64,000 nucleotides of DNA from a virus. The stretch spans positions 1 through 64,000 of the IMG/VR virus record IMGVR_UViG_3300043425_001673. One strand, 5' to 3'. A program made the position numbers and the translations under genes. Below are positions 9,991 through 10,761 of the stretch, in pieces. The notes under the pieces were generated by a model that saw only the letters and a list, made by a program, of their open reading frames with translations, ran no database searches and had not been told where the DNA came from. The stretch's first letter is position 1. The number at the start of each line of letters is the position of its first letter.

Positions 9991-10130
9991 TGCAAATTGT
10001 AGTCCAATTGACTTCAGTAAAGTGCGCTACTGTTGCGTCCTGTTTTGTTTGTTTATTGTACTGTAGAGTCCTGTGTTGTTTTCTGTTGTGTTGTAATGGA
10101 GCCGATCAACCAGTAATGGTTGGATCGGCT
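9991..10130 (+). ncRNA. pentamer-periodic (NGT-NN)n tracts plus terminal hairpin; candidate guide RNA (VIPR-like)
   Basis: Tract 1 at 9991-10050 and tract 2 at 10057-10101 have T/GT every 5 nt; hairpin AGCCGATCAACCA..TGGTTGGATCGGCT at 10100-10130. Confidence 0.65.
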
Positions 10131-10161
10131 TACTATTTTTGTAATTAAATAAGGTAAAGCA

Positions 10162-10761
10162 ATGAAGATGTTTAAAGTAAAAATAAGAGGATTGACACCA
10201 CTTCTTCAACACAGAATGCCTGATGAAACTTTGATGTCTCTTTTACTGGGAACAACTGCAAAAAAGAAAACCGCAGTGCAAAAAGAAATTACGCCGCGAG
10301 AAATAGCGGAAAAGCATGTTTATCAAACAGAAGATGGTTTATTTTATTTTCCAAGTGCTTATATAACAGGCGCATTTATTTCTGTGGCGTCTGATTACAA
10401 ACAGAAGCATTCATCACGCAAGAGCATTAAAAGCATCGCTGGTGGAGTTTTTCGACCTTCAAATGAAATTTGTGTATTGATTGATTCAAAATCAAAACCC
10501 ATGAAAAAGTGGGAAGTTGATATCAAGAAGGGCACAAATCACCAAGCCGGTGCTGTAGCGATTTGTCGGCCACGTTTTGACAATTGGTATTCGGAGTTTG
10601 ACGTATATGTTGATGACAGTATAATTGAGCCAGAAATAGCGCACCAGATTTTGGAAGACGCAGGAAGACGTGCGGGTATAGGAAGTTTCAGAGTTAATAA
10701 GGGCGGGTATTATGGCCAGTTTGAAATCATTTTGTGGAAGGATATTTCCGAAAACAAATAA
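10162..10761 (+). CDS. standalone RAMP/Cas7-like protein (Vipr-like)
   Basis: IRGLTPLLQH N-terminal strand, RPRFDNW, and Gly-rich loop AGRRAGIGSFRVNKGGYYGQF. Confidence 0.7.
   Translation: MKMFKVKIRGLTPLLQHRMPDETLMSLLLGTTAKKKTAVQKEITPREIAEKHVYQTEDGLFYFPSAYITGAFISVASDYKQKHSSRKSIKSIAGGVFRPSNEICVLIDSKSKPMKKWEVDIKKGTNHQAGAVAICRPRFDNWYSEFDVYVDDSIIEPEIAHQILEDAGRRAGIGSFRVNKGGYYGQFEIILWKDISENK

What the first reader, a model, noticed from the sequence alone, without database searches (positions are those of the whole stretch)
9991..10761. Standalone RAMP/Cas7-like gene with a 5-nt-periodic (NGT-NN)n RNA: VIPR-like gapped-guide system with a variant triplet
Seen: tract 1 (9991-10050) reads TGC-AA ATT-GT AGT-CC AAT-TG ACT-TC AGT-AA AGT-GC GCT-AC TGT-TG CGT-CC TGT-TT TGT-TT. 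Tract 2 (10057-10101) reads TGT-AC TGT-AG AGT-CC TGT-GT TGT-TT TCT-GT TGT-GT TGT-AA TGG-AG. A strong hairpin (10100-10130) follows, then a 199-aa protein with RAMP hallmarks (G.TPLL.H; Gly loop GIGSFR..GG.YG.F). No cas genes or CRISPR array are present. From recollection, not verified: phage VIPR systems pair such a protein with GGY/NN pentamer RNAs whose NN dinucleotides specify a gapped DNA target. Inference: this is a TGT/AGT-triplet variant with two guides (AA GT CC TG TC AA GC AC TG CC TT TT and AC AG CC GT TT GT GT AA AG), probably aimed at rival phages or host genes.
Basis: partly seen in the sequence, partly recalled or inferred. Interest (0 to 1): 0.9.

Follow-up and report, generated by a model that had tools for sequence, protein, structure and literature searches.

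The report
Phage VIPR system with WGT-NN guides
An uncultured 95-kb phage carries a small Cas7-like protein and, just upstream, a five-letter-repeat guide RNA gene; together they are a genuine VIPR system (an RNA-guided DNA silencer first described in 2026), including its odd repeat letters, so it is real but not a new kind of system.

Summary
Positions 9998-10101 (+) carry two adjacent 5-nt-periodic tracts of W-G-T-N-N units, one base out of phase. A 14-bp hairpin and a T run follow. This is the only such locus in the 94,771-nt virus genome.

The 199-aa ORF (10162-10761) is a Vipr protein. Its family profile matches the solved SUSP1 Vipr end to end (E 5e-7), and its model has a Csm3/Cas7 fold (Z 11.9). 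All 18 distinct homologue loci have 5-nt-periodic tracts beside vipr on the same strand, mostly large GT-NNN arrays.

In one homologue, a guide matches a co-occurring phage's vipr gene at 21 of 22 NN positions. The match is in frame under the published 1-nt-skip rule.

The "variant triplet" is already in print, as YNNNG and as WGT/NN, in two 2026 preprints. This scan has already noted VIPR loci on other DNA (425 notes, at least 298 genomes).

Not settled:
- whether the two tracts are one RNA or two;
- where the promoter is;
- what the guides target. Exact gapped matches in viral contigs are no more frequent than for a control pattern.

Verdict: a new member of a known kind, of moderate to low interest.

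The parts
9998..10055 (+). vrRNA repeat tract 1: about 12 pentamers of W-G/N-T-N-N, degenerate at G. T is kept in 12 successive units.
   Evidence: Homologue L005 has arrays of similar degeneracy, and L013 has an AGT-type tract upstream of vipr.
10057..10101 (+). vrRNA repeat tract 2: 9 pentamers of T/A-G-T-N-N, one base out of phase with tract 1. It ends in the GTAA-type unit typical of vrRNA ends in this clade.
   Evidence: 7 of 8 GT, never reached in 200 simulated genomes. Clade-typical terminal units are listed.
10099..10141 (+). 3' tail: a 14-bp hairpin (10099-10131) followed by a T run (10136-10140). It is probably the vrRNA 3' end and a leaky intrinsic terminator ahead of vipr.
   Evidence: fold; z -2.8 for the whole 161 nt. 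Hairpins directly follow the last repeat in L007, L011 and L018. The consensus terminator scan missed it because 4 nt separate stem and T run.
10162..10761 (+). vipr: a 199-aa stand-alone RAMP (Cas7-like) protein
   Evidence: - PDB sequence search: top hit is SUSP1 Vipr, E 5.5e-4.
- Family profile against the same chain: E 5.2e-7 over residues 1-189 of both.
- AF2 model: pLDDT 84.6.
- Foldseek: 68 Cas7-family hits at E<=1e-3.
- VIA-align: Z 11.9, rmsd 4.1, 162-168 residues aligned to Csm3.
- phrog_4652, E 3e-18.
- 246 homologues.
10774..11001 (+). 75-aa four-Cys zinc-ribbon ORF starting 13 nt after vipr on the same strand. It is a possible lineage-specific accessory gene, but it is not a conserved partner of vipr.
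   Evidence: Weak zf-BED and phrog_2569 hits. It has no relative beside any homologous vipr, and the clade has no conserved neighbour gene.

Best explanation
This is a minimal VIPR (Viral Interference Programmable Repeat) system of a phage.

Proposed mechanism, by homology with SUSP1 VIPR:
- The stretch 9998-10141 is transcribed on the + strand into a vrRNA of W-G-T-N-N pentamers. It ends in a hairpin that serves as its 3' tail and as a leaky terminator.
- Read-through, or the same transcript, supplies the vipr mRNA.
- Vipr protomers bind one per pentamer and form a helical filament. They sequester the G and T of each unit, together with the unread first base, and present the two following bases.
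- These NN dinucleotides pair with double-stranded DNA that carries the same dinucleotides separated by one skipped base.
- The filament sits on the target and blocks transcription, most likely of a gene of a competing phage or other mobile element.

Shown here:
- the protein is a Vipr;
- the periodic tract is there, is unique in the genome, and lies on the gene's strand;
- homologues carry the same kind of repeat;
- in a homologue the 1-nt-skip code fits a real gene.

Inferred: transcription, filament formation, silencing, and the nature of the target.
For: Protein:
- End-to-end profile match to the experimentally characterised SUSP1 Vipr.
- Csm3/Cas7 fold with RRM core, a thumb hairpin (strands 118-126 and 130-139) and a glycine loop before the last strand.
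- The residues that hold G2 and Y3 in SUSP1 (R138, W178, R179) align with R136, F176 and R177, which are invariant or nearly so in 29 family members.

RNA:
- The periodic GT tract is unique in the genome and beyond simulation.
- It lies on the same strand as vipr, 60 nt upstream, and ends in a hairpin.

Family:
- All 18 distinct homologue loci have 5-nt-periodic tracts beside vipr on its strand.
- In five whole relatives' genomes (234 kb) plus this one, tracts of 7 or more units lie at the vipr loci, with two exceptions in G005.
- In 725 units, G is 95% and T 94% (partly by selection), while the other three positions have 1.90-1.98 bits of entropy.

Code:
- The first guide of the L004 array matches 21 of 22 NN positions in the vipr gene of L002, a contig from the same metagenome.
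- The match is in frame with the skipped base at the wobble position. No one of 1500 unit-order shuffles reached 21.
- L004's own vipr encodes the same peptide but matches only 18 of 22, because two Ser codons are of the other codon family.

Literature:
- VIPR, its 1-nt-skip rule, single-vrRNA systems and YNNNG repeats.
- WGT/NN repeats next to Vipr-like folds.

Context:
- The record is a virus, and the locus lies in an accessory island between tail and baseplate genes.
- That island also holds an Acb2/Tad1-domain gene and a DRT-like reverse transcriptase.
Against: - No expression data could be obtained, and no convincing sigma-70 promoter precedes the tract. Two TTGACT hexamers at 9977 and 10008 lack a good -10.
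- G is kept in only 7 of 12 units of tract 1.
- The canonical GGY triplet is not present.
- No conserved vap partner exists.
- Neither guide has a target above chance. There is nothing in the phage's own genome. In viral contigs tract 2 gave 1 exact hit and tract 1 gave 0 and 1, against 4 hits for a backwards control. An extended tract 2 gave 0.
- The idea that Asp177 to Ser explains the free first base is weakened by phage phiHSIC, which keeps the Asp yet also has a variable first base.
Confidence: 0.9

Rival explanations
1. The system is VIPR, but only tract 2 plus the hairpin is the working vrRNA. Tract 1 is a 5' leader, a promoter region or a decayed former guide, so the locus has one guide rather than two.
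For: - Tract 2 has the cleaner repeat (7 of 8 GT) and directly abuts the tail.
- Tract 1 keeps G in 7 of 12 units and holds a TTGACT hexamer at 10008 that could be a -35 for a start just before tract 2.
- The published family includes systems with a single vrRNA.
- Nine units is within the published 9-16 range.
Against: - T is kept in 12 successive units of tract 1, the longest such run in the genome.
- Homologue arrays of equal degeneracy lie beside vipr in L005 and L013.
- No usable -10 follows the 10008 hexamer.
Confidence: 0.3
2. The locus is a decaying or silent VIPR remnant. The protein is intact, but the guide is no longer matched to any target, or is not made.
For: - No target was found above chance.
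- The locus has only 21 units, against arrays of 8-13 guides in relatives.
- The first tract is degenerate.
Against: - The vipr ORF is full length, and all 31 invariant family positions are kept.
- The tail hairpin is intact.
- Exact-match searches are insensitive, since published targets were called at 80% NN match or more.
- The collection searched need not hold the rival element.
Confidence: 0.07
3. The periodic tract is a chance or structural T/G-rich spacer and terminator region, or the 52-aa Cys-rich ORF 9990-10148 is coding. On this reading the RAMP protein works with some other RNA.
For: - An ORF with a GTG start spans the tract.
- The region is T-rich.
Against: - A 5-nt period is incompatible with coding constraint.
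- The tract exceeds all simulations.
- The same repeat type flanks every homologue.
- No other periodic tract exists in the genome.
Confidence: 0.02

Closest known systems
Type II VIPR of Escherichia phage SUSP1 (Vipr + vap1 + four vrRNAs; bioRxiv 10.64898/2026.04.26.720920 and .720927; PDB 36pp)
   Same: - A ~200-aa stand-alone RAMP, collinear over 189 residues.
- The G2 and Y3 contact residues are kept.
- A pentamer-repeat RNA on the gene's strand with a structured 3' tail.
- One vrRNA lies upstream of vipr.
- The system is phage-borne, with no cas genes or CRISPR array.
   Different: - The repeat is W-G-T-N-N rather than G-G-Y-N-N.
- SUSP1's Asp177, which contacts G1, is Ser175 here.
- The tail is a plain hairpin and terminator, not a pseudoknot.
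- There is no vap1 homologue and no downstream array.
- The two tracts are offset by +1 nt.
Non-canonical VIPR repeats: 'YNNNG' (10.64898/2026.04.26.720920, Methods) and 'WGT/NN' clusters (10.64898/2026.10.21.760802, section 2.3 and fig. S10)
   Same: The same motif class: G and pyrimidine are fixed and the first base is degenerate (A/T here in 19 of 21 units). It lies next to a Vipr-like fold.
   Different: I could not see the figures or tables, so I cannot say whether this protein clade is one of the 21 clusters or which of the seven types it belongs to. Those reports give about 10 repeats per unit; here there are 12 + 9 with a phase slip.
Staggered vrRNA arrays (10.64898/2026.04.26.720920, fig. 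S18 legend)
   Same: Homologues L001, L002 and L010 have guides joined through a 4-nt unit, which shifts the phase by -1. This is the published one-nucleotide overlap.
   Different: The window has no such array. Its joint is 11 nt for two units, a +1 shift, and is T-rich rather than the GAAA joint.
Class 1 CRISPR backbone subunits (Csm3/Cas7 of type III and type VII)
   Same: The fold: Z 11.9 to Csm3 over the whole chain. Thumb and glycine loop are present.
   Different: Sequence identity is 10-18%. There is no CRISPR array, no Cas10, Cas5 or Cas6, and no second RRM. The guide is a 5-nt repeat rather than a spacer.

Membership tests
VIPR system | Vipr protein: a small stand-alone RAMP with RRM core, thumb and glycine-rich loop | tested here: met
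   AF2 pLDDT 84.6. Foldseek gives 68 Cas7-family hits. Z 11.9 to Csm3. Thumb hairpin 118-139 and G-loop 171-186.
VIPR system | Sequence homology to an experimentally characterised Vipr | tested here: met
   SUSP1 Vipr (36pp_D) is the only PDB hit of the family profile, E 5.2e-7, over residues 1-189 of both. The single sequence gives E 5.5e-4.
VIPR system | Tandem pentanucleotide repeats beside vipr, with conserved scaffold letters alternating with hypervariable NN | tested here: met
   for the window. for 18 homologue loci.
VIPR system | Canonical GGY scaffold triplet | tested here: not met
   The triplet is W-G-T. The describing papers admit related consensus motifs (YNNNG, WGT/NN), so this does not exclude membership.
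VIPR system | Invariable structured 3' tail after the repeat tract | tested here: met
   A 14-bp hairpin follows directly after the last unit, as in L007, L011 and L018. No pseudoknot was looked for.
VIPR system | vipr-accessory gene (vap) | tested here: inconclusive
   A 75-aa zinc-ribbon ORF follows vipr, but it has no relative beside homologues and the clade has no conserved neighbour. vap is typical of the family, not obligatory.
VIPR system | Viral or proviral location without cas genes or a CRISPR array | tested here: met
   The record is a virus. Tail and baseplate genes flank the locus. No CRISPR-like repeats are present.
VIPR system | Targets read by NN dinucleotides with a one-nucleotide skip | tested here: inconclusive
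   - Clade: one guide of L004 fits the vipr of L002 at 21 of 22 positions, in frame.
- Window's own guides: hits are at control level only.
VIPR system | vrRNA is expressed and co-purifies with Vipr, and the complex represses transcription | not testable with these tools
Class 1 CRISPR-Cas | CRISPR array and further cas genes (large subunit, Cas5, Cas6, adaptation genes) | tested here: not met
   No direct-repeat families are found in 64 kb. The neighbours are tail and accessory genes.

The most novel reading that the evidence does not exclude
The two out-of-phase tracts are one vrRNA of about 21 units that sits in the 5' leader of the vipr mRNA.
- The 1-nt slip breaks the Vipr filament into two registers, so that one RNA reads two separate gapped half-sites.
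- The hairpin terminator couples guide production to Vipr synthesis.
- The first base of each unit is a free, unread spacer in this clade.
Probability: 0.12. Interest if true: 0.5.

Novelty: new member of a known kind. Interest (0 to 1): 0.3.

Why it matters
VIPR is a class of RNA-guided DNA recognition that is months old. Each well-documented non-canonical member helps to define which scaffold letters Vipr proteins tolerate and whether the 1-nt-skip code is general.

This locus and its relatives add three things:
- The G-Y-only scaffold goes with a large, coherent Vipr clade (246 homologues found).
- That clade has no conserved partner gene.
- One natural guide-target pair fits the published code in frame. 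The guide's owner escapes through a serine codon-family switch, one of the few escapes that wobble skipping does not cover.

For this phage, the locus is part of an accessory island in the tail module that also holds an Acb2/Tad1-type anti-defence domain and a DRT-like reverse transcriptase.

Tried and rejected
Target searches:
- Self-targets. The best matches of either guide in the phage's own genome are 12-16 of 16-22 positions under skips of 0-2, which is chance level.
- Tract 2 in viral contigs. One exact 18-base gapped match lies in a DnaG-like primase gene of L021, in the wobble phase. I do not count it as a target, because the same pattern read backwards gave 4 exact matches and the flanking units do not extend the match.
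- Tract 1 in viral contigs. Units 3-11 gave 0 hits. Units 2-10 gave 1 hit in L039, in the wrong codon phase and with 0 of 6 flanking positions matched.
- Tract 2 extended upstream by three T-type units gave 0 hits.

Alternative decoding rules:
- NN with skips of 0 or 2, the shifted NN register, and NNN with skips of 0 or 1 gave no guide above shuffles among six phage genomes.
- The third variable base matched the skipped target base in 3 of 10 positions of the one good pair, so it is probably not read.

Asp177-to-Ser as the cause of the free first base:
- This is kept only as a weak idea. phiHSIC keeps the Asp, has Asn at the His17 position, and also has a variable first base.

Other checks that led nowhere:
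- The zinc-ribbon ORF as a vap is not supported by conservation.
- No Rfam family covers the vrRNA region.
- PADLOC has no model for the protein.
- Pfam gives only a sub-threshold ThsB_TIR match, which I disregard.
- The host could not be inferred.

Full report
**The observation**

Between the stop of a baseplate-hub gene (PF04717) at 9980 and the ORF at 10162 lie two runs of pentamers on the + strand.

- Tract 2 (10057-10101) keeps T in 8 of 9 units and GT in 7 of 9.
- Position 1 is A or T in 19 of 21 units.
- The tracts are one base out of phase, and the T-rich joint (10041-10056) fits both phases.

This is the only place in the 94,771-nt genome where 6 or 7 of 8 successive pentamers carry GT. 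None of 200 Markov-1 simulated genomes reached 7. The periodic T runs of 12 and 11 units are the two longest such runs in the genome.

A 14-bp hairpin (10099-10131) starts inside the last unit. It is followed, after 4 nt, by five T's.

**The protein**

- The 199-aa ORF finds 'SUSP1 Vipr protein' (PDB 36pp) as its top solved relative, at E 5.5e-4.
- A profile of 29 family members finds that chain alone, at E 5.2e-7, collinear over residues 1-189 of both.
- The AlphaFold model (pLDDT 84.6) has an RRM core, a long beta-hairpin thumb and a glycine loop before the last strand.
- The model matches Csm3/Cas7 subunits of type III and type VII CRISPR complexes over its whole length. Foldseek gives 68 hits at E<=1e-3. 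VIA-align gives Z 11.9, rmsd 4.1, 162-168 residues aligned.
- The family is large (246 hits), has no Pfam model, and corresponds to phrog_4652 of unknown function.

**What is known**

VIPR systems were described in 2026 (bioRxiv 10.64898/2026.04.26.720920).

- A stand-alone RAMP (Vipr) binds vrRNAs made of 9-16 pentamers, followed by a structured 3' tail.
- The GGY of each unit is held by the protein.
- The NN pair with DNA that carries the same dinucleotides separated by one skipped base, usually the codon wobble position.
- Binding silences transcription of rival mobile elements.

The structural paper (10.64898/2026.04.26.720927) names the contacts:
- G1: His17 and Asp177.
- G2: Arg138 and Trp178.
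- Y3: a pocket that includes Arg179.

The first paper's Methods list alternative repeats (NNNGG, YNNNG, NNNNG), single-vrRNA systems and staggered arrays. A later preprint (10.64898/2026.10.21.760802) reports 21 clusters of non-canonical repeats next to Vipr-like folds and names WGT/NN among them.

**Relatives**

I fetched 20 loci that encode homologues of 41-63% identity; 18 of them are distinct.

- Fifteen carry runs of six or more GT-NNN units on the vipr strand. Most are arrays of up to 13 guides that start 20-30 nt after the stop codon.
- L013 has an AGT/AGC-type tract directly upstream of vipr, like the window.
- L012 and L019 have upstream tracts with other fixed letters.
- In six whole phage genomes, tracts of seven or more units lie at the vipr loci, with two exceptions in G005.
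- Over 725 units, the three positions after G-T carry 1.90-1.98 bits each. The base that corresponds to G1 of the canonical triplet is thus as free as the NN.
- Guides typically end in GTAA- or GTGA-type units. In several loci a hairpin follows directly, as in the window.
- No other gene is conserved beside vipr. The 75-aa zinc-ribbon ORF that follows vipr in the window has no counterpart elsewhere.

**Does the published code apply to this clade?**

I ran an all-against-all search of 41 guides against six phage genomes under six decoding rules. One match stood out, and it came under the canonical rule.

- The first guide of the L004 array (L004 3627-3681) fits L002 3211-3242 at 21 of 22 NN positions.
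- None of 1500 unit-order shuffles reached 21, and random guides reached at most 19.
- The site lies inside the vipr gene of L002, in frame, over the family's most conserved motif. Every skipped base is at the wobble position.
- Both contigs come from the same metagenome.
- L004's own vipr encodes the identical 11 residues but matches only 18 of 22, because two Ser codons are of the other family.
- The third variable base of the guide matches the skipped base in 3 of 10 cases, so it is probably not read.

Guides against rivals' vipr genes are also in print.

**The window's own guides**

- Neither tract matches the phage's own genome.
- Exact gapped patterns of 18 bases in viral contigs gave one hit for tract 2. 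It lies in a DnaG-like primase of L021, in wobble phase.
- The same search for tract 1 gave none and one. The one hit is in the wrong phase, and its flanks do not match.
- The tract 2 pattern read backwards gave four hits, so these counts are at chance level.
- A 20-base extended pattern gave none.

The targets are unknown.

**Mechanism proposed**

The stretch 9998-10141 is transcribed with, or just ahead of, vipr. In L005, L007, L013 and L014 the upstream tract runs right up to the vipr ribosome-binding site, which suggests a shared transcript. In the window, only 30 nt separate the T run from the start codon, and no promoter fits there.

The hairpin would give the vrRNA its 3' end and let some transcription through. 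Vipr then coats the repeats one protomer per unit and reads DNA by the NN/skip-1 code.

The contacts for G2 and Y3 are conserved (R136, F176, R177), and His17 is kept. SUSP1's Asp177 is Ser175 here, nearly invariant in the clade. That fits a free first base. However, phiHSIC keeps the Asp and also has a free first base, so this link is weak.

**Open points**

- One RNA or two.
- The promoter.
- The targets.
- The host.
- The published type number.

**Verdict**

This is a real VIPR locus of the non-canonical WGT/NN (YNNNG) kind. The class and the variant are already described, and this scan has many earlier VIPR notes on other DNA.

Noticed in passing
window 11146-11454 (-): A 102-aa ORF with an Acb2/Tad1 hairpin domain (PF24729, E 2.6e-8, above the curated cut-off). 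This is a likely sponge-type anti-CBASS/anti-Thoeris protein, two genes away from vipr.
   Followed up: partly
window 12734-12863 (-) and 12987-13760 (-): A Y RNA-like (YrlA, RF02553) match at E 9e-5, below the gathering score, with a tRNA-like part. It lies just downstream of a DUF7873 gene (E 4e-82).
   Followed up: partly
window 14360-16549 (+): A 729-aa protein whose C-terminal third matches defence-associated reverse transcriptases (PADLOC RT, E 2e-23; UG21, UG17, Drt8). Together with VIPR and the Acb2/Tad1 gene, it forms an accessory island (about 9981-16600) that interrupts the tail and baseplate module.
   Followed up: partly
L004 3627-3681 and L002 3211-3242: A guide of one uncultured phage matches the vipr gene of another phage from the same metagenome at 21 of 22 NN positions, in frame. 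The guide's owner keeps the same peptide but uses the other serine codon family (18 of 22).
   Followed up: yes
L040 3136-3405 (Listonella phage phiHSIC, AY772740.1): The annotated ORF21, opposite in strand to the Vipr homologue ORF22, overlaps three tracts of N-G-C-N-N pentamers on the ORF22 strand. It is probably a vrRNA array mis-annotated as a protein gene, in a cultured phage that could serve as an experimental model.
   Followed up: partly
L012 1036-1125; L019 1003-1102: Two more distant homologues carry upstream pentamer tracts with other fixed letters: G/A-C-NNN in L012 and G/C-A-NNN in L019. The scaffold letters therefore shift within this one protein family.
   Followed up: no
L021 4785-4810 (-): This is the only exact viral-contig match to the nine NN of tract 2. 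It lies in a DnaG-like primase gene with every skipped base at the wobble position. The count is at chance level by the control scan, but it is worth a look if the phages prove to share a host.
   Followed up: partly
L005 1952-2011 (-) and 6375-6414 (+): In this relative, two further GT/TT-periodic tracts lie about 1 kb and 3.4 kb from vipr, one on the opposite strand. They may be solo guides.
   Followed up: no
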